IMG/VR virus record: IMGVR_UViG_3300046780_000362
Location: 1 to 62,463 of that record
DNA from: a virus
Taxonomy: Duplodnaviria; Caudoviricetes
Strand: one strand, 5' to 3'
DNA: 62,463 nt
Below are positions 18,561-26,832 of the stretch, one piece after another (within the stretch, counting starts at the first letter, position 1; every line of letters begins with the position of its first letter). Below the pieces are notes generated by a model, which saw only the letters and a list, made by a program, of their open reading frames with translations, searched no databases and was not told the origin of the DNA. The position numbers and the translations under genes were made by a program.

Positions 18561-18940
18561 TGCTCGCCTGGCGTCGCAGCGATTCCGCGGCGCGAGCGCT
18601 CGCTGCGATCGAGTCGGGGAACGCGGTGATCGTGGGCGCCACGGCGGCGCATGGCGTCAAGGTCGTGTGCGTGGGCCATGATGATCTCTTGACCGGTCGC
18701 GACACGCGCCGCGTCGTCTCCGCGGTCGCGGCCGTGCAGCGGTGGGCCCGCGTTTGGTGTAACACGTGACGCAACGGTTACGTCACGCGTTCCGCACGTG
18801 GGTGCGCGACGATCCCGATCGGCGGTGGCTGAACACGCGGCCCGAGCGCGTCATGTTGTGGGCGTTTCGGTGGGGGTCGCCCTCGCACTGGGGTGACGTG
18901 CCCACGTTTCGTCAGGCGTGGACGGGTACGTGGTGGTGAG

Positions 18941-18956
18941 TGGCACGGAACGTGCA
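18941..18956 (+). promoter_or_regulatory. Sigma54 -24/-12 promoter
   Basis: TGGCACGGAACGTGCA; ATG at 18968. Confidence 0.6.
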
Positions 18957-18967
18957 ACACGGATGGC

Positions 18968-19225
18968 ATGCAATACGTGATCGAAGTCAGAACCCCGGGC
19001 GACGCGAAGGCTACGCGATACGTGTGCGACAAGCGCGGCCGCGCACCGAGCTACGCTACGTTCGACCTCGTGTCGTCCGACGTGTGCACAGTCGCGCCCG
19101 ACATGGCGTTCGCCAAAGAAGTACGGAACGCGTTCGTGGCGTTCTGTAAGGCGCACCCCGAGACTGGGTACTCGCTCGATGGGAAGAAGATCGTGCTGGT
19201 TCCGTGGGCACGGGTGCGGCCGTGA
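18968..19225 (+). CDS. Hypothetical protein
   Basis: ORF after a sigma54 motif. Confidence 0.55.
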   Translation: MQYVIEVRTPGDAKATRYVCDKRGRAPSYATFDLVSSDVCTVAPDMAFAKEVRNAFVAFCKAHPETGYSLDGKKIVLVPWARVRP

Positions 19226-19596
19226 CCCGCCTCGTGATCGCGGGCGTGCCGAAGTCGGGGAAGACGACGCTCGCGAATTCGTTCGTGCGCCCGGTGTCGC
19301 GGCACTCTGACGACTTGATCGGTGCTCGTCCATGGTCATGGGTTTCCACCGAGGTCGCCACGTGGTTCGACGCCCCCGGCCCGTGGATCATAGAAGGCGT
19401 CGCGGCAGTGCGTGCACTTCGGAAATGGCTCGTCGCGCACCCCACAGGCAAGCCGTGCGACCGCGTGATCTGGCTAGACTTCCCGTGGTTCGCACTCACT
19501 CACGGCCAGGCTACCATGGCGAAAGGCTGTCGTACCATCTGGGATGGTGTGCGCCCGGCGCTCGTGGCACGCGGCGTGCACGTGGAGGAGTCATGA
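19222..19596 (+). CDS. Small P-loop NMP-kinase-like protein
   Basis: GVPKSGKTT, HSDDL, WIIEG. Confidence 0.65.
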   Translation: MTRLVIAGVPKSGKTTLANSFVRPVSRHSDDLIGARPWSWVSTEVATWFDAPGPWIIEGVAAVRALRKWLVAHPTGKPCDRVIWLDFPWFALTHGQATMAKGCRTIWDGVRPALVARGVHVEES

Positions 19597-19874
19597 ACCC
19601 CGCCCTAGTCCTCGCCATTCGCTCCCACGGATTCCACACCGCTGCGGTCATGCTAGAAGGCGCGAAGACGCCCGAGCACGAATTGCTAGCGCTCCGAATG
19701 GCGCTCGCCACAATCGAGGGGGCGTCACACGTGTTACGTACGCACGCCCGCGCGTTGCGAAATACGAGCGCCGCGCACGAGCGCGGACGACTCCGCGGCC
19801 TCGAAGCGGACATTACGATCCGGCTCGGGCAACTTTTGCGGGCGGCACGGAACGTGCAACGGGAGACGGCATGA
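19593..19874 (+). CDS. Hypothetical protein
   Basis: ATG overlaps the upstream stop. Confidence 0.45.
   Translation: MNPALVLAIRSHGFHTAAVMLEGAKTPEHELLALRMALATIEGASHVLRTHARALRNTSAAHERGRLRGLEADITIRLGQLLRAARNVQRETA
19843..19858 (+). promoter_or_regulatory. Sigma54 -24/-12 promoter
   Basis: CGGCACGGAACGTGCA; ATG at 19871. Confidence 0.5.
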
Positions 19875-20417
19875 ACAAGAAACGCCCGACGCTCACCGGC
19901 CTCGCCCCCGCTCGCGGTGCGTGCGCCCCTACCCGCCCGGGGCTCGTCGCCCCCAGCACGTACCGCGAGGGGCCTCGCCCCGCCGAACAGGTGATTGCCG
20001 CTTACACCGAACGCGTAGCGCTCCCGCGGCGTCGGGTGATCGCGTGAGTTGGTTCGAGCGGTACGATCTCGAGATCCTTGTTGCGCTCGTGATCGCCGCG
20101 GTGCTCGCGAGTGCTGTGTTCGGAGTGTGGGACCACGTGACGTGCGCGGAACGCGGACCCCCGCGCCAGGAAATGCAATACGTTTCGTGTGGCGATAACT
20201 GCCACATGTGGATGCCTGTAACCGTTTCGGATTGCGTCCGGAGAAAACCATGAACCAGTCACACCGACCCGCACCCAAGTTCTCGAACCCCGGGCGTCGC
20301 GCCCGCTTCTCGTTCATCACGCGCGACAAGGAAGGCAACGCCGTACGCGAGTGGCACCGCGAGATCCCCGTGGACGCGGCGCAGAGCAAGTCCCTTCGGG
20401 GAATGGTGCGGCCGTAG

Positions 20418-20750
20418 ATGACCCACACCACCGACACCACGGACGCGGACGCGCTCGCGAACATCCGGAATCCGGACTCGCGACGCGCGTTCGTGGCGCT
20501 GTACAATGACATGCGCGCCGCACGCCGCGCCTCCGGGCGCGTCGCGCGTAGCGCGCTCGCCCTCGCCTTCGTCGCCCCGATCATTCTGCGCAAGGCCGAG
20601 ACGGACGGACACCCGCCCGACGGGTGGACCAAAGTCATGATCTTGAACCACCTCCTCGCACAAGCAAACGGAACGTGGTGGGCCCCGGACGAGGTCGTGA
20701 CCGCGCTCGCGGACGCGCGGTGTTACGTACGGCCGACGGTGTCCGCGTGA
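20418..20750 (+). CDS. Hypothetical protein
   Basis: 110 aa ORF in the operon. Confidence 0.5.
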   Translation: MTHTTDTTDADALANIRNPDSRRAFVALYNDMRAARRASGRVARSALALAFVAPIILRKAETDGHPPDGWTKVMILNHLLAQANGTWWAPDEVVTALADARCYVRPTVSA

Positions 20751-20921
20751 GGCCCACCTCGGTCACGGTCGACATCAAGCGAGATCGTATGTACACCGGA
20801 TATTCAGAACCGCGTGGAGCATCCGTTACCATCGTTCTGGACTGTACCACTGAAGAGGCGGAGCTGTGTTACGACATGGTCTCACAGTGGCTATGCCGCG
20901 CGGAATCAGAAGACGAGCGGA

Positions 20922-20937
20922 TGGCACGGACCATGCA
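20922..20937 (+). promoter_or_regulatory. Sigma54 -24/-12 promoter
   Basis: TGGCACGGACCATGCA; ATG at 20950. Confidence 0.6.
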
Positions 20938-20949
20938 ACGTACCAAGGT

Positions 20950-21750
20950 ATGAAAAGCACCATGACCCGCACGAGACATTCCACCGCCACGAAGCTACGT
21001 GCCGTCGACCTCCCCGAGGCGTTCGCGCTCGCGACCGTCGCCACGGCAACGCGCAAGGCGCGCAACCCGCGCGACGACCGCCGCGCGCTCAACAAGGCGC
21101 TTCGCGTGGCGGCCGTGCTCGCGACGCTCGCCTTGGAGGCGTGCGGCGGGGCTGTGGCCACGAGTCCCGCACCAACCCCGTGCGACGACTACGCGGAGCG
21201 CCTCGTCGCCGCGGGGTGCGACCTACCCTCCGATCTCGCGGTCGGTATCGACTGCCCGGCGTACACCGCCAAGATCTCCGCGTGCGCCGCGGACGCGCAG
21301 TGCGCCGACGACATGTCGGTGCGAATGATAGAGGCATGTCACGGTGCGACCCCGCCCGAGTTCGTTCTGGCGGATCCATTCGTTCGGTACGCCGAAGACG
21401 CGTGCTCGTGCGCGGACCCCGGGCCGTGTAACGTCACCGAGATCGTGACGGCGTTGCGCAACGGTACGCCCGACGTCGCGTGCGTCGACGCGTACTCCAC
21501 GGCCATGGAAGAGCGCGTGTCGTGCAACGTCGTGCCTATGCCCACGTGCGAGATCTTCCCGGGCTCCGCGGCGGAGCGTTTCGCAAAGGCCGTGTGCGCG
21601 TGCCACGCCACGAGCGGTGACATGTGGTCCGGATGCTTTGACAACGCGCTAGGAGAGGTGCGCGGCGGTGACCCGCGGTGCCTGACCCAGCTTGCGATCG
21701 GGTACGAGTCGGATTGCTCGGGGCGTAGCGGAGGGGAGTGTGCGCCGTGA
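20950..21750 (+). CDS. Cys-rich lipoprotein
   Basis: Lipobox LEAC-GG followed by many regularly spaced Cys residues. Confidence 0.6.
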   Translation: MKSTMTRTRHSTATKLRAVDLPEAFALATVATATRKARNPRDDRRALNKALRVAAVLATLALEACGGAVATSPAPTPCDDYAERLVAAGCDLPSDLAVGIDCPAYTAKISACAADAQCADDMSVRMIEACHGATPPEFVLADPFVRYAEDACSCADPGPCNVTEIVTALRNGTPDVACVDAYSTAMEERVSCNVVPMPTCEIFPGSAAERFAKAVCACHATSGDMWSGCFDNALGEVRGGDPRCLTQLAIGYESDCSGRSGGECAP

Positions 21751-22040
21751 GAAGTATAGAAGATTGCGAGGTCTTGATCGGTGAGATCGTGGTCGCGCTT
21801 CGGGCCAGCCGTGTAAGCGTGGAGCAAGCCCGACAAGAGGCCGAACAAAAGTGCCCTAGCCCACTCCTTCCGGATAACGAGGAAACGTACAACGTGCAGG
21901 GCCGCGCGTATGAAGACGCACTAAGCCATGTGTCACTTGTTAAAGCCGCCAGCAAAGAGCTGCAAACGTGCCTCACGAACGCGCGCGCAGAGCTCGTGGC
22001 AGTGCGTGCATATTTGGCCGCGGGCGGTAGGTTCTCATGA
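21747..22040 (+). CDS. Hypothetical coiled-coil protein
   Basis: GTG overlaps the upstream stop. Confidence 0.5.
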   Translation: MRSIEDCEVLIGEIVVALRASRVSVEQARQEAEQKCPSPLLPDNEETYNVQGRAYEDALSHVSLVKAASKELQTCLTNARAELVAVRAYLAAGGRFS

Positions 22041-22090
22041 AACTCCGCGACTACGAAACCCGCGCCGTCCGCAACGTGCCCGCGCTCCAC

Positions 22091-22290
22091 GGCACGGCGT
22101 GGTAAGGCATGTTTTGGTCCGGCCAGGCAAGGCACTCCAGGGTTCGGCATGGCGCGGTCAGGTCAGGCGAGGCACGGCAAGGCGCGGCAAGGCACTCCAT
22201 GGTCAGGCAAGGCACGGCCGGGTTGGGCGCGACGGGGCAAGGCACACCAGGGCATGGCCAGGCGCGATAAGGCCGGGCATGGCACCCCCA
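22091..22290 (+). ncRNA. GGY-NN pentamer array 1 (4 units; putative guide RNA array)
   Basis: 40 in-phase pentamers, 33 starting GGY; delimiters GGCAC-TCCAG, -TCCAT, -ACCAG and -CCCCA end at 22140, 22200, 22250 and 22290. The repeat is certain; the RNA function is inferred. Confidence 0.7.
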
Positions 22291-22356
22291 AAATACTTTC
22301 GTAACTTATTCACGTAATACAGCCGCGGTCAAAGTACCGCAGAAGAGACACGTCAA

Positions 22357-22917
22357 ATGCAAACGTTCAAAGCAACGCTCACGGGTACGGCACCGCTCAT
22401 CATGCACAACGAACGCCTCGCGAACCCGCGCGACCCGCATACGCGGGCGCTGAAAGAACTCACGTCCGTTCGAAGCAAGACGGACGAGGTACTTGCTGAC
22501 ATTCAAAAAACCGAGTGGCGCGGAGGGCTGTACGAGTTCAACAAGCGCGCCGTCGTCCCCGCGGCGAACGTGCTCGCGTGCATCAAAGAGGGCGCGCGTA
22601 AGTTGAAGCAGGGGAAGGCGATCGCGTCCAGCGTGTTCTCGCTCGATGCGTTTTACGTGCTCACGTACGACGGCCCGACGGACTTCGAGGCGTTGTACGA
22701 TGACGGTCGTTTCTCCGACTATCGTTCCGTTGGCGTGAACCAGTCGCGCGTGATGCGCTCGCGCCCGATCTTTCCGGAGTGGTCGATCAAGATCTCGCTC
22801 GAGTTCGACGCGGACGTGGTGACTCCCGAAGTGCTTTCGCAGTCGCTCGACATTGCCGGCCGGCAGATCGGCCTCTGCGATCACCGTCCGCAATACGGCC
22901 GGTTCGTGGTGTCGTGA
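22357..22917 (+). CDS. RAMP/Cas7-like putative RNA-binding protein
   Basis: 186 aa; N-terminal strand LTGTAPLIMH, VPAANVLACIKEGAR, RSRPIFPEW, Gly-rich C-terminal loop AGRQIGLCDHRPQYGRFVV; lies between the two arrays. Confidence 0.7.
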   Translation: MQTFKATLTGTAPLIMHNERLANPRDPHTRALKELTSVRSKTDEVLADIQKTEWRGGLYEFNKRAVVPAANVLACIKEGARKLKQGKAIASSVFSLDAFYVLTYDGPTDFEALYDDGRFSDYRSVGVNQSRVMRSRPIFPEWSIKISLEFDADVVTPEVLSQSLDIAGRQIGLCDHRPQYGRFVVS

Positions 22918-23354
22918 TGGACGGCGGTGACGCACCGGTGCGACCGTGCCGGATCGAACTGCTCGCGAAGGGGCAGTACCTCCCGCCCGGCTACCTCGAG
23001 CACCGCTGGCGCCTCGTGCGTCAGACGCAAGCGTACCAGCTGCAGATGCGCGCATTGATCGATCGCATCCGAAGTGAACGCCCAGATCTCGCCGCACACG
23101 TGCGACAGGATCGCGACGGGATCCGTATCATGGAAGATCTCGAAGCGGACACGTACGATCACGATCGGCGGAGAATTCTCGTGCGACAACTTCGACGGTC
23201 GGCGAAACGTCGCGCGTCGATCGACCGTGCAAAGTTCTCGGCCGAGAGCCGTCGCGCGGCGGAGAACGAGGATCAAGTTGCGTCGGCGATCGCGGGGTCG
23301 TGTTCCGCGGCTGTGCGAGCTGCACGCCGCAAGCGATTGTTCGACGGCGATTGA
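22917..23354 (+). CDS. Accessory protein of the array locus (basic, helical)
   Basis: ATG overlaps the RAMP gene stop (TGATG); 145 aa, Arg-rich. Confidence 0.7.
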   Translation: MDGGDAPVRPCRIELLAKGQYLPPGYLEHRWRLVRQTQAYQLQMRALIDRIRSERPDLAAHVRQDRDGIRIMEDLEADTYDHDRRRILVRQLRRSAKRRASIDRAKFSAESRRAAENEDQVASAIAGSCSAAVRAARRKRLFDGD

Positions 23355-23383
23355 GTTTCGCCCCGGGGCTGGGCTATTTCCCC

Positions 23384-23914
23384 GGTTGGGCCCGGTAGGG
23401 CATGTCGGGGCGCGGCATGGCAGGGTTTGGCACTCCAGGGCTTGGCGCGGCAGGGCAAGGTGAGGTCTGTCGCGGCTGTGGTCGGGCAAGGCACTCTTTG
23501 GTACGGCGAGGTTGGGCCCGGTAGGTCTGGGTCGGGCGCGGCGAGGTTGGGCAAGGCACTCCGGGGCTAGGCGAGGCATGGCGCGGCCGGATGAGGCATG
23601 GCCCGGCAAGGCACTCCATGGTGAGGCGAGTCTAGGTCAGGCGCGGCGAGGTCTGGTTTGGCGAGGTCAGGCAGGGCACTCCGCGGTACGGTCTGGCTGG
23701 GCCCGGTAAGGTTGGGTTTGGCGCGGCGTGGCGTGGCACTCCGTGGCCCGGTTCGGCCCGGCGGGGCGGGGCGAGGCCTGGCGAGGCAAGGCACTCCATG
23801 GTTGGGCGAGTTCAGGCTGGGCACGGCTGGGCGCGGCTAGGTGTGGCGGGGCGCGGCATGGCGCTCCTCGGCGAGGCAAGGTTTGGCCGGGCGAGATCGG
23901 GCGAGGCCAGGCAA
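23384..23914 (+). ncRNA. GGY-NN pentamer array 2 (9 units; putative guide RNA array)
   Basis: 106 pentamers, 91 starting GGY, one 1-nt phase slip at about 23479; GGCRC-TCYNN delimiters start at 23429, 23490, 23555, 23610, 23675, 23735, 23790 and 23860. Confidence 0.7.
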
Positions 23915-23923
23915 GTTCTGAAA

Positions 23924-23959
23924 TGGCACGCGGTTTGCTTCATTGCAGATCGCGTGCCA
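23924..23959. promoter_or_regulatory. Pair of head-to-head sigma54 motifs
   Basis: + strand TGGCACGCGGTTTGCT (23924-23939); - strand TGGCACGCGATCTGCA (23944-23959). Confidence 0.55.
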
Positions 23960-23969
23960 TTGTTGCGTC

Positions 23970-24242
23970 GTGGCAAAAGACGCACTCGACGCACCCACCC
24001 CGCCCGTTGAACCGACCCGCCTCGAATCGCTCCGCGCGCGTCTGAAAGAAGTAGCGCCGGCCGTCAAGGTCGAGCGCCGGCCCGCCACCGCGGACACCGA
24101 GAAGGAGCCAGGCTCGAAGGCATGCGTGCTCGCCTCGTGGGGGCGCCATCGTGTCTCCGACGTTGCCGAGCAAGGTCGTGATCTCGATGCGTGCGAGTGC
24201 CGCGTGATCGCGGTCGTGATCGCGCATCACGAGGCATCGTGA
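23970..24242 (+). CDS. Hypothetical protein
   Basis: GTG after a sigma54 motif; coupled to the next ORF. Confidence 0.5.
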   Translation: MAKDALDAPTPPVEPTRLESLRARLKEVAPAVKVERRPATADTEKEPGSKACVLASWGRHRVSDVAEQGRDLDACECRVIAVVIAHHEAS

Positions 24243-24610
24243 GCTTGCCCGAGCACATTGCGCGGCGCGTACGACGCGACCCGTCTTTGATCCCGCTTCG
24301 GCTCGAACACTTCGCGCCGAACGAGATCCTTTTCCGCGCGGTGCCGAACGTCGAACACGGCACGCTGTGCGCCGCGTTCGGGCTCGACCCCGTCACGTTT
24401 TGGTTCGATGTTCCTGAATCCTTCCGGCGCGAGGGCTCGCAACGCGCGGGGCTCTCCGCGTCGCGTCGCGAGATCAGTGGCTTCGTGTTCCGTGGACCGA
24501 AGGGTAGCAACCCGGTCGCCAAGCTTTCGGTGTGTCGCGAGGGCGACAAGTTCCGTGATAGGGACCCCATGTCGCGCGCTGACTTCGAACGCCTCGGAGA
24601 GACGTTGTGA
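24239..24610 (+). CDS. Hypothetical protein
   Basis: GTG overlaps the upstream stop. Confidence 0.55.
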   Translation: MSLPEHIARRVRRDPSLIPLRLEHFAPNEILFRAVPNVEHGTLCAAFGLDPVTFWFDVPESFRREGSQRAGLSASRREISGFVFRGPKGSNPVAKLSVCREGDKFRDRDPMSRADFERLGETL

Positions 24611-24728
24611 CACCGCGCCACGTGCAAGGCATCAGGGTGGGCGACGCCGCGCCCCCGATCGCCGCGCTGGCGCGCGACAAGATTTTGGCCCCACCTCGGG
24701 GCCGCACCCAAAACACGGAGTCACCACA

Positions 24729-25331
24729 ATGTCCGAACCCGCACGCAAGATCAGCAATCCCTTCGCGAACGAAAAACCGGAGCGCGCCCCCCAGGTAGTC
24801 GCTCGAGTTACGAACATGCACGTGCGGCGCACGGGCATCGTTCCACTGTACATCGGAGCGAGCCGGATCATTCCGCTCCCCGACGGAAGCAAGCGCCAGT
24901 ACGAAGCCCGCGAGCTCCGAATCGAGGCGGCGCGCGCACAGCAGGACGGGCGCACGCTCAACGTCTCGGTCATGTGCTTCGAGCTCCGCCGCGTCTTCGC
25001 TACGTACGAGGACTTCGCCGGCGAACTGCCCCCGCTCGCGGACATGGTGAACGAAGGACTCGCGTTCACATGGGCGTACTGGTGTGAAGACAAGTACGAC
25101 CCGAAGAGCGTCGAGACCGCCGCGGCGCTCGGTGCCGAGATCAAGGCGTTGACCGCAGCGCACCGAAACCTCGTGGAGTCGATTGCCAAGATGAGCGACG
25201 TGGAAGAGATCATGAAGGCCCGCAAACGGGGCGACGAGATCAAGGCCATGATCGAGGAGTCGAAGAAGAAGAAGAAGATCGAAGAAGAGTCGATCATTGG
25301 CCTCATGAGCGATACGCCGTTCGAGGTGTGA
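24729..25331 (+). CDS. Hypothetical protein with coiled-coil C-terminus
   Basis: GGAG RBS; strong codon bias; directly before the portal gene. Confidence 0.65.
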   Translation: MSEPARKISNPFANEKPERAPQVVARVTNMHVRRTGIVPLYIGASRIIPLPDGSKRQYEARELRIEAARAQQDGRTLNVSVMCFELRRVFATYEDFAGELPPLADMVNEGLAFTWAYWCEDKYDPKSVETAAALGAEIKALTAAHRNLVESIAKMSDVEEIMKARKRGDEIKAMIEESKKKKKIEEESIIGLMSDTPFEV

Positions 25332-25341
25332 TCGGCGATCA

Positions 25342-26832
25342 ATGTCGGAAGGCAACTACGACGCGTTCCGTGGACACCCGCTCACCGGGCCCGGCGTAGT
25401 TGCGTCCAATCCGCTCGATCCGCAAACGCAGATCGGCGGAATGATCACGCCGGTGACAGACGATCCGGCGTGGCAAGCCCCGACAGACCCGCTCGCCGCC
25501 GGCGCGGACGTGCCCGGTGCCGCGAAACTGATCTTCCGCGAGATCCCGAACGTCAACGTTCAGCACGGGTGGTCCATCGCGCAGATCCGGATCGCGCTCA
25601 TTGCATTGAGCGCGGGGAACTTCGACCTTCCGGCACAGCTCGTGGACGCGCTCTTTTCCGATTCGCGAATTCAAGCGAGCCTCGCGTCGATCAACGGCGG
25701 ACTCTTCTCGCGGCCCATCACGTGGGAGATACCGCCCGGACTCGAGAACGACGAACAGGCGATCGCGTGCCTCGCGGCGTGGCAAGACGCGTGGCCCGGG
25801 ATCGGCACCGAAGCCGCCCTGTCGGACGCCATGGCGTGGGACGTGCTGCTTGGTTTCTGGTGCGCGCAGATCCTGTGGGACACGTCGGGCGACGTGTGGA
25901 TCCCGCAGATCTCCCCGTGGCACGCGCGTTATACGTACTACCATTGGACGCTCCGCCGGCTCATTGCGAGCACGATGGACGGCCAGGTGGTGATCGAACC
26001 GGGCGACGGAAAGTGGATCTTCCACGCACCACACGGCGAATACCGGGGGTGGATGCGCGGCGCGATTCGCTCCGTCTCCCCGTGGTGGCTCGCGAGAAAC
26101 TACGCGCTCCGCGACGCGGCCCGCTACTCCGAACGTCACGGCTTTCCGATCACGAAGGCATGGACCCCGTTCGGTGCGGACCCGATCGCGATCAACGATT
26201 TCCGCAACACGCTCCGCCGGCTCGGCCAAGAGACGGTCGCACAGCTACCGCGCTCGGCAGATCCAAAAGTCGGTGAGTACGATATCGAATACCTCGAGGC
26301 GAAAGACCAGTCGTGGGAGGTGTTCTTCAAGTTGATCGAGCAGTGCAACATGGAGATCACGCTCGCCATTCAGGCGCAGAACCTCACGTCAGAGGTGAAA
26401 GAGGGGTCCCTCGCGGCGGCGCGCGAACACGGCGACGTGAAGCAGACGCTCCTGCAGTCGAAGGCGCGCGGTTTCTGTCGGACGCTGTACACGCAACTCG
26501 CGCGACCGTTCGCCGCGCTGAACTACGGGCGACCCGAGATCGCGCCGCGGCCGAAGTGGGACATCAAGCCGGTAGACGATAAGAAGACGCTGGCGCTCGC
26601 ACTCCTGAACTTGGCACAGTCGCTCAACTACCTCCGCGTCGCGGGCAAGCAAGTGAAGGACGTACGCGCGCTTGCTGCGCAATTCGGGCTCGACCTCGGC
26701 GAACTCGAGGACGTGGTACCGCTACAAGTGGACGTAGCGACGGCGCGGGTCGATGGCACGACACCGCCGGTCAAGTCAGACTCAACTAGCGACGACGAGT
26801 CCGACGACAAGAAAAACGAGAATGAAAACTAA
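25342..26832 (+). CDS. Portal protein (DUF935/Mu gp29-like)
   Basis: 496 aa; YSERHGFP, QNLTSE..GSLAAAREH; first gene of the head module. Confidence 0.85.
   Translation: MSEGNYDAFRGHPLTGPGVVASNPLDPQTQIGGMITPVTDDPAWQAPTDPLAAGADVPGAAKLIFREIPNVNVQHGWSIAQIRIALIALSAGNFDLPAQLVDALFSDSRIQASLASINGGLFSRPITWEIPPGLENDEQAIACLAAWQDAWPGIGTEAALSDAMAWDVLLGFWCAQILWDTSGDVWIPQISPWHARYTYYHWTLRRLIASTMDGQVVIEPGDGKWIFHAPHGEYRGWMRGAIRSVSPWWLARNYALRDAARYSERHGFPITKAWTPFGADPIAINDFRNTLRRLGQETVAQLPRSADPKVGEYDIEYLEAKDQSWEVFFKLIEQCNMEITLAIQAQNLTSEVKEGSLAAAREHGDVKQTLLQSKARGFCRTLYTQLARPFAALNYGRPEIAPRPKWDIKPVDDKKTLALALLNLAQSLNYLRVAGKQVKDVRALAAQFGLDLGELEDVVPLQVDVATARVDGTTPPVKSDSTSDDESDDKKNENEN

What the first reader, a model, noticed from the sequence alone, without database searches (positions are those of the whole stretch)
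22091..23914. Non-contiguous target code: NN dinucleotides may spell gapped DNA targets
Inference: GGY cannot match arbitrary targets, so any specificity must come from the NN pairs, read either concatenated or with skipped target bases (for example NN-x-NN-x). A 3-nt period would let a guide skip codon wobble positions and resist synonymous escape. I found no convincing target inside this window by eye.
Basis: inference. Interest (0 to 1): 0.8.

Follow-up and report, generated by a model that had tools for sequence, protein, structure and literature searches.

The report
Phage VIPR guide-RNA locus, already described

Summary
Two + strand arrays of 5-nt GGYNN units (22091-22290 and 23384-23914; 124 of 148 units are GGY) flank two small genes. 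They form 13 modules of 7-13 units, each ending in GGCAA-GGCAC-TCC.

The 186-aa gene between them (22357-22917) is a homologue of the solved SUSP1 Vipr protein (PDB 36pp, E 8.3e-27). It keeps most of the residues that contact GGY and folds as a CRISPR RAMP.

The same pairing is widespread. Of 120 viral contigs fetched by the DNA pattern alone, 79 encode a Vipr, always on the array strand.

Three 2026 preprints show experimentally that such vrRNAs guide Vipr filaments to DNA by an NN-x-NN-x code that skips the codon wobble base.

I found no natural target for this locus. This holds for the phage itself, two related phages, limited exact scans for 4 of 13 guides in viral contigs and 1 of 13 in metagenome contigs, and 145 other loci. 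The host is unknown.

The NN composition does fit codon positions 1-2 at period 3 and no other spacing.

Verdict: a new member of a known kind, with an unusually compact array.

The parts
22091..22290 (+). Upstream vrRNA array A: four modules, A1 22091-22140, A2 22141-22200, A3 22201-22250, A4 22251-22290. Each has 7-11 GGYNN units and ends in GGCA(A/T)-GGCAC followed by a TCCNN, ACCAG or CCCCA unit.
   Evidence: The in-phase GGY run is at 22091-22285.
22357..22917 (+). vipr gene (186 aa), a minimal RAMP protein that would bind one GGY per protomer along the vrRNA.
   Evidence: PDB 36pp_D 'SUSP1 Vipr protein', E 8.3e-27 over residues 4-185. phrog_4652, E 7.7e-47. AlphaFold2 pLDDT 94.6. Foldseek top hits are Csm3/Cas7/Cmr/Cas6 RAMPs. 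H17, K33, R39, R136, D175, R177 and K87 align with the SUSP1 contact residues.
22917..23354 (+). Candidate vipr-accessory gene (145 aa, Arg/Lys-rich, predicted all-helical). Its ATG overlaps the vipr stop codon by one base.
   Evidence: Assigned by position only. It has no Pfam, PHROG or PDB match and only two close homologues, 74% and 72% identical. It shows no similarity to the gene in the same position in phage wV8 or LESphi2. The AlphaFold2 model is poor, pLDDT 56.
23384..23914 (+). Downstream vrRNA array B: nine modules, B1 23384-23438, B2 23439-23499 (one extra base at 23479), B3 23500-23564, B4 23565-23619, B5 23620-23684, B6 23685-23744, B7 23745-23799, B8 23800-23869, B9 23870-23914.
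22186..22198 (+). Example of the 13-nt punctuation GGCAAGGCACTCC that closes each module. GGCAC[TA]CC starts at 22131, 22191, 22241, 23429, 23555, 23610, 23675, 23735 and 23790. Degenerate copies are at 23490 and 23860.
   Evidence: The motif does not recur two or more times in any of 145 other loci that I held.
23922..23961 (+). 17-bp hairpin directly after the last module. It is the likely 3' end or cap of the array transcript.
   Evidence: RNA fold -41.2 kcal/mol, z -5.06, 0 of 200 shuffles fold as well. The consensus terminator scan did not call it because there is no T run.

Best explanation
The region is a VIPR (Viral Interference Programmable Repeat) locus of a soil phage. The two + strand arrays are transcribed and cut into about 13 vrRNAs. 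Vipr protomers (22357-22917) polymerise along each vrRNA, one per GGYNN unit. They bury each GGY and present the NN pair. The filament then binds double-stranded DNA whose sequence reads NN-x-NN-x, with one skipped base per unit that usually falls on the codon wobble position, and silences transcription of a competing mobile element. Shown here: the repeat anatomy, the protein's family, fold and contact residues, and the genome-wide linkage of such arrays with vipr genes. Taken from the literature on homologues (SUSP1, P. fulva): RNA binding, the 1-nt skip rule and silencing. Inferred: that this locus is expressed, where the vrRNAs are cut (near GGCAC|TCC), and what it targets.
For: 1. Arrays: 124 of 148 units are GGY with all 16 NN present, on the vipr strand, upstream and downstream of the gene.
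2. Protein: E 8.3e-27 to solved SUSP1 Vipr. The residues reported to read G1, G2 and Y3 and to hold the skip base are conserved: H17, D177, R138, R179, K33 and R39 in SUSP1 correspond to H17, D175, R136, R177, K33 and R39 here.
3. Fold: AlphaFold2 pLDDT 94.6. The best Foldseek hits are Csm3/Cas7 RAMPs, probability 1.00, TM 0.44-0.54.
Of these, 54 of 120 by tblastn and 79 of 120 by profile HMM encode a Vipr homologue. The arrays are on the gene's strand in 79 of 79 and within 200 nt in 67 of 79.
5. Code: the NN pairs are 52.6% GC in a 65.7% GC genome. Their dinucleotide likelihood vector (16.3, -6.6, -26.5) matches pseudo-guides drawn from a related phage's genes at period 3 on codon positions 1-2 (19.2, -0.6, -21.0, sd about 6). 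It is reached by 0 of 500 samples at skip 0, 2 or 3.
6. No self-target above noise, as reported for other VIPRs.
7. The published experiments on homologues.
Against: No natural target was found. This includes the window, two related phage genomes and 145 other loci. Exact 8- or 9-unit core scans for 5 of the 13 guides (4 in viral contigs, 1 in metagenome contigs) also gave nothing, because the held-out units matched only at chance level. The best hit, A2 at 20/22 in L231 and L244, is in codon phase but is about what chance gives in a database of that size by my own estimate. There are no expression data, since no RNA run holds the stretch. SUSP1 W178, which stacks on G2, is His here, and K82 is Arg. 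There is no ~40-nt structured tail of the SUSP1 kind, only an 8-13-nt punctuation. The accessory gene has no detectable relation to the genes in that position in wV8 or LESphi2. NN pairs are AT-shifted relative to codon positions 1-2 in all GC classes of 79 loci, so part of the composition signal may be intrinsic to the RNA.
Confidence: 0.85

Rival explanations
1. It is a VIPR locus, but in this clade the code or the substrate differs: another skip length, RNA rather than DNA targets, or guides that serve as decoys titrating a rival phage's Vipr rather than as the phage's own weapon.
For: No target was found at skip 1. W178 is His. The tail-less array architecture was not seen in 145 other loci. 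Decoy and solo vrRNAs are described for satellites and phages.
Against: The skip-base pocket residue K33 and the thumb Arg are conserved. The composition fits period 3 on codon positions 1-2 and not skip 0, 2 or 3. The locus carries its own vipr gene.
Confidence: 0.08
2. The arrays act as DNA, not RNA. They would be iteron-like or packaging or partition sites bound by a phage protein at half-helical-turn spacing, or a G-rich strand that forms two-tier G-quadruplexes.
For: The arrays lie 1.4 kb upstream of the portal gene. GG recurs every 5 nt. No promoter was called.
Against: The adjacent protein is a RAMP homologous to a solved RNA-binding Vipr. The arrays are always on the coding strand of vipr, 79 of 79, which a double-stranded site would not need. 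The related complete phage G001 packages without any such array.
Confidence: 0.03
3. The arrays are protein-coding, for example pentapeptide-like repeats arising from a 15-nt period.
For: Short open frames of 60-105 aa cross the arrays on both strands.
Against: A 5-nt period is out of step with any single reading frame. The frames are broken in all six phases, have no family match, and change register at 23479.
Confidence: 0.01

Closest known systems
Type II VIPR of Escherichia phage SUSP1 (Vipr structure PDB 36pp) and the P. fulva prophage VIPR
   Same: The Vipr protein is homologous (E 8.3e-27, about 35% identity). GGYNN vrRNAs lie upstream and downstream of vipr on the same strand. A small second gene follows directly. 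The element is phage-borne. Modules have 7-13 units, against a reported range of 9-16.
   Different: This locus has 13 modules, against the 4 vrRNAs reported for SUSP1. It has no ~40-nt pseudoknot tail. Instead the modules abut in register and are separated only by GGCAA-GGCAC-TCC. The second gene is unrelated in sequence to the gene in that position in the SUSP1-like phage wV8. The host is unknown and the source is soil. I could not assign one of the seven types, because the classification tables are in supplements that I could not see.
'Staggered' vrRNA arrays mentioned for other VIPR types (legend of fig. S18, read)
   Same: [quoted passage not shown] Loci such as L005, L008 and L017 in my sample show this with a 1-nt register shift.
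   Different: In the window the 5-nt register is kept across the punctuation unit (GGCAC TCCNN GGYNN), so there is no 1-nt overlap or shift. I could not see the figure itself.
Class 1 CRISPR Cas7 backbone filaments (Csm3, Cmr4, Cascade Cas7)
   Same: The proteins share the RAMP fold, thumb and G-loop. One protomer binds per fixed RNA increment, and bases are flipped out periodically.
   Different: There is no CRISPR repeat-spacer array, no cas1/cas2 and no other cas genes. The increment is 5 nt with 3 bases buried and 2 paired, rather than 6 nt with 5 paired. The element is phage-encoded.

Membership tests
VIPR system | A Vipr protein homologous in sequence to the characterised SUSP1 Vipr | tested here: met
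   phmmer against PDB 36pp_D gives E 8.3e-27 over residues 4-185 of 186. phrog_4652, E 7.7e-47.
VIPR system | Minimal RAMP fold (single RRM core, G-loop, thumb) | tested here: met
   The AlphaFold2 model has pLDDT 94.6 and pTM 0.87. Of the 41 Foldseek rows printed between ranks 1 and 50, all are CRISPR RAMP-bearing complexes or subunits (Csm3, Csm5, Cmr, Cas6, type IV and VII Cas7), with best E 1.6e-4. The library used predates entry 36pp. The G-loop reads GLCDHRPQYGRF, with G172, R177, G181, R182 and F183 invariant in 28 homologues.
VIPR system | Conservation of the residues reported to read GGY and hold the skipped base (SUSP1 H17, D177, R138, W178, R179, K33, R39, K82, K88) | tested here: met
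   From the alignment read, seven are conserved: H17, D175, R136, R177, K33, R39 and K87. Two are substituted: W178 to H176 and K82 to R81. The Y3-pocket residues E71 and M72 are A70 and N71.
VIPR system | vrRNA genes: tandem GGYNN (YNNGG) units, 9-16 per RNA, with GGY conserved and NN variable, flanking vipr on its strand | tested here: met
   There are 13 modules of 7-13 units. 124 of 148 units are GGY and all 16 NN occur. The modules are on the + strand, like vipr. One module (A4) is shorter than the reported range, with 7 units.
VIPR system | Structured invariable 3' tail after the repeat tract (about 40 nt with a pseudoknot in the SUSP1 clade) | tested here: not met
   Only a 13-nt conserved end, GGCAAGGCACTCC, is present, and the next module follows at once. 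Only the last module is followed by a hairpin. The paper says array architectures vary between types, so this counts against the SUSP1-clade architecture, not against VIPR membership.
VIPR system | An accessory vap gene next to vipr | tested here: inconclusive
   A 145-aa gene overlaps the vipr stop codon. It has no family, no similarity to wV8 gp94 or LESphi2 P21_8, and a poor model.
VIPR system | Natural targets matching NN-x-NN-x at 80% or more, and none in the element itself | tested here: inconclusive
   Self-targeting is absent apart from one noise-level 15/18. No supported external target was found. The host and competitor genomes were not available.
VIPR system | vrRNAs expressed and bound by Vipr, with silencing of targets | not testable with these tools
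   No RNA run holds the stretch. This needs bench work.
CRISPR-Cas (class 1) | A repeat-spacer array of 25-40-nt repeats plus cas genes beyond a single RAMP | tested here: not met
   The only repeats are 5-nt units with 50-70-nt super-periods. The neighbouring genes have no Cas families.

The most novel reading that the evidence does not exclude
The locus may represent a VIPR array architecture, and perhaps a subtype, that is not among those described. Thirteen guides sit as in-register, tail-less modules separated only by GGCAA-GGCAC-TCC. This implies a processing or capping route different from the pseudoknot tail, hammerhead or 1-nt-staggered forms. It is paired with an orphan helical, basic accessory protein that could be the missing cap or processing factor. 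Partial similarity between guides B1, B3 and B6 would then reflect guide diversification by module duplication.
Probability: 0.3. Interest if true: 0.45.

Novelty: new member of a known kind. Interest (0 to 1): 0.3.

Why it matters
VIPR is a newly described way of reading DNA with RNA. A repeat scaffold stores a gapped two-in-three code that ignores wobble bases, so synonymous mutations cannot provide escape. This window adds a high-GC soil-phage example far from the Escherichia and Pseudomonas systems studied so far. It has many guides and a compact array, and it sits in a 5-kb variable segment that a closely related complete phage lacks. For the scan, it shows that a reader working from raw sequence alone reached the published mechanism. 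It also shows that a simple DNA pattern, (GGYNN)x10, retrieves such loci efficiently: 79 of 120 carry a vipr gene. Finding the targets of these 13 guides would show which element this phage competes with in soil.

Tried and rejected
- Rfam on 20000-26000 at E up to 1 found nothing, and Rfam on 13 related loci found nothing. There are no tRNAs in the window.
- A 17-nt exact punctuation string in viral contigs gave two chance hits without arrays. A punctuated degenerate pattern gave none.
- Host search: a single-protein scan of genome contigs found no relative. The alignment scan found 23 loci at 41% identity or less in diverse phyla. The portal's nearest cultured relative is Myxococcus phage Mx4 at 35%. 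The host therefore stays unknown, and I ran no taxon-wide pattern search.
- Target scans with skips 0-3 against base-shuffled guides covered the window, G001 plus G002 and 145 other loci. Isolated low-count cells were B4 at skip 2, 17/20, reached by 0 of 200 shuffles; B5 at skip 1, 17/22, reached by 5 of 200; and B9 on the window itself at skip 1, 15/18, reached by 1 of 100. These are what about 50-100 tests each would give by chance.
- Exact skip-1 core scans returned B3 23 loci, B8 20, B5 15 and A2 37 in viral contigs, and B6 25 in metagenome contigs. Held-out units matched at most 3/8, 5/10, 4/8, 4/6 and 2/4 respectively.
- All-against-all test: 717 ten-unit windows against a base-shuffle null showed an apparent skip-1 excess (223 against 98 at 17/20 or more). 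This vanished with low-complexity filtering and a unit-order null. With 638 windows, the counts at 16, 17, 18 and 19 or more of 20 were 943/84/4/1 for real guides against 832/71/3/0 for shuffles.
- Pairwise guide similarity: B1-B3, B1-B8 and B3-B6 gave p 0.003-0.007 among 78 pairs, which is suggestive only.
- Sequencing runs: no RNA holder is listed. The laid DNA contigs were identical to the window where they fit, so they gave no view of NN variation.
- The promoter and terminator scan gave nothing usable.
- The p145 model was too poor for a fold search, and none was run.
Paper supplements, which hold the type tables, figures S17-S22 and the data files, were not seen. They may already list this architecture or a near relative.

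Full report
**What is there.**
- On the + strand, two stretches are built from 5-nt units of the form GGYNN.
- In 100-nt windows, one register holds 16-19 GGY out of 20 possible, only at 22061-22320 and 23341-23940.
- A run caller on both strands finds three runs, 22091-22285, 23384-23478 and 23480-23914, and none elsewhere. Mononucleotide shuffles give 0.1 runs.
- Written in fives, 124 of 148 units are GGC (92) or GGT (32), and all 16 NN dinucleotides occur.
- Every 50-70 nt the run is closed by a conserved GGCAA-GGCAC followed by a TCCNN unit. This divides array A into 4 modules and array B into 9, each of 7-13 units.
- Array B has one extra base at 23479.
- A 17-bp hairpin (23922-23961, z -5.06) follows the last module.
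- The frames that cross the arrays are short and broken, and a 5-nt period cannot be coding.

**The partner gene.**
- Two overlapping genes lie between the arrays.
- The first (22357-22917, 186 aa) has no Pfam family but matches phrog_4652, E 7.7e-47. It has homologues in 130 cultured phage records.
- Of those 120, 54 by tblastn and 79 by a profile of 28 homologues encode this protein.
- The arrays are on the gene's strand in 79 of 79 and within 200 nt in 67 of 79.
- The 41 loci without a hit include short fragments. They may also hold divergent types or solo arrays. I did not resolve them.

**Identification.**
- The protein matches PDB 36pp chain D, 'SUSP1 Vipr protein', at E 8.3e-27.
- A literature search for that name found three 2026 preprints.
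- I read the Results, Discussion and four Methods sections of 10.64898/2026.04.26.720920. I also read the Results of 10.64898/2026.04.26.720927 and two sections of 10.64898/2026.10.15.759431. I saw no supplements.
- These papers report that VIPR systems consist of a minimal RAMP protein (Vipr), usually one accessory gene (vap), and vrRNAs of 9-16 YNNGG repeats with a 3' tail.
- One protomer binds each repeat and buries GGY. The NN pairs base-pair with DNA in which one base is skipped per unit, usually the wobble base.
- Binding silences transcription. The natural targets are satellites, prophages and rival VIPRs, with no self-targets at 80% or more.

**Membership.**
- Reading the alignment against the contact residues named gives the following matches (SUSP1 residue, then window residue):
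  - H17 = H17
  - K33 = K33
  - R39 = R39
  - R138 = R136
  - D177 = D175
  - R179 = R177
  - K88 = K87
- W178 is His176 here, K82 is Arg81, and E71 and M72 are Ala and Asn.
- The AlphaFold2 model is confident, with pLDDT 94.6. Its Foldseek neighbours are Csm3, Cas7, Cmr and Cas6 RAMPs.
- The RNA features fit, apart from the tail. There is no ~40-nt structured tail, only the 13-nt GGCAAGGCACTCC.
- That motif did not recur in any of the 145 other loci I held. Relatives instead show hairpin tails (L040, L013), U-rich tails (L095), 1-nt staggered junctions (L005, L017) or separate promoter-like units (L094, L099).
- The second gene (22917-23354, 145 aa) is a vap candidate by position only.

**Context.**
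- The window is a whole virus record of 62,463 nt.
- It has a Mu-like head module, a family A DNA polymerase, a helicase and a nuclease.
- Two related viral contigs have portals 68-69% identical. One of them, G001, has terminal repeats and is estimated complete. They carry no vipr gene and no arrays.
- Window 19.3-24.3 kb corresponds to about 0.7 kb in G001, so the VIPR locus sits in a variable segment.
- Soil and rhizosphere metagenome runs hold the stretch.

**Testing the gapped code here.**
- I built NN strings for the 13 modules and scanned at skips 0-3, on both strands, against shuffled guides. The three local scans covered the window with arrays masked, G001 plus G002, and 145 other loci totalling 2.6 Mb counting both strands. 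None showed enrichment at any skip.
- Remote collections accept only exact patterns and the scans are capped. I therefore searched exact 8-unit (viral) or 9-unit (metagenome) skip-1 cores of five guides and used the remaining units as a held-out check. All held-out matches were at chance level.
- The best case was A2, with 20 of 22 positions in two homologous contigs. The NN pairs fall on codon positions 1-2 of a conserved WIAQQDTNAKP motif. By my estimate about 17 such matches are expected by chance in a collection of that size, so I do not count it.
- An all-against-all scan of 638 guide windows from all loci gave no excess over unit-order shuffles. An earlier apparent excess came from the null used and from low-complexity windows.

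**A database-free test.**
- If guides pair with codon positions 1-2 of genes in a 66% GC setting, their NN pairs should be much less GC-rich than the genome and should have a specific dinucleotide make-up.
- The 115 variable NN pairs are 52.6% GC, against 65.7% for the window and 59% for positions 1-2.
- Likelihoods under phase-specific tables trained on 47 window genes give (16.3, -6.6, -26.5) bits for phases 1-2, 2-3 and 3-1.
- Pseudo-guides drawn from genes of G001 at period 3 on positions 1-2 give (19.2, -0.6, -21.0) with sd about 6.
- The other two phases reach the observed first value in 0.016 and 0 of 500 samples. Skips 0, 2 and 3 reach it in 0 of 500 each.
- Caveat: across 79 loci, NN GC tracks locus GC (slope 0.72) but lies below GC of positions 1-2 in every class. 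An intrinsic AT preference may therefore add to the signal.

**Rivals.**
- DNA-level roles such as iterons, packaging sites or G-quadruplexes do not explain the strict strand linkage with a RAMP gene.
- A coding role is excluded by the period.
- A variant code, or a decoy role, within VIPR is not excluded.

**Verdict.**
It is not supported by a found target.
- The mechanism is already in print, so this is a new member of a known kind with an unusually compact, guide-rich array.

Noticed in passing
window 19277-24271 against G001 18642-19363: The 5-kb segment holding the VIPR locus and several small ORFs is replaced by about 0.7 kb in a related, apparently complete phage. This suggests an exchangeable accessory-gene hotspot just upstream of the head module.
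   Followed up: partly
L029 6823-7200 (- strand): In this viral contig the GGYNN modules are separated by elements containing GGTTCGACTCC within short hairpins, which look like tRNA T-arms. ARAGORN and Rfam call nothing there. This could be a tRNA-like processing signal between vrRNAs. The papers I read mention only hammerhead, staggered and tailed arrays.
   Followed up: partly
L094 4409-5079; L099 5289-5920 (- strand): In these loci each GGYNN module appears to be its own unit. Modules are separated by AT-rich spacers with TATAAT-like or TTGAC-like boxes and end in GGGCTTTTT or a hairpin. This suggests one promoter per vrRNA rather than a processed array.
   Followed up: no
window 23384-23744 (modules B1, B3, B6): Three guides share part of their NN strings: B3-B6 12 of 20, B1-B3 10 of 16, with p 0.003-0.007 among 78 pairs. 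They look like diverged duplicates aimed at variants of one target.
   Followed up: partly
window 22038-22106: A 22-codon ORF starts on the stop codon of the upstream gene (ATGA overlap) and runs into the first units of array A. It is probably spurious, but it marks where upstream translation ends relative to the array.
   Followed up: no
laid contigs of runs X2-X5 at window 22146-22193 and 23569-23613: Other contigs in the same soil runs align only to the conserved GGCGC-GGCAA-GGCAC end and continue into different GGYNN arrays. Other elements in these soils therefore seem to carry arrays with the same module ending.
   Followed up: no
41 of the 120 pattern-fetched viral loci (listed): These loci have GGYNN arrays but no Vipr hit to my profile. 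Some are long arrays (L054, L100, L104, L066). They may be divergent VIPR types, solo vrRNA arrays or truncated loci.
   Followed up: no
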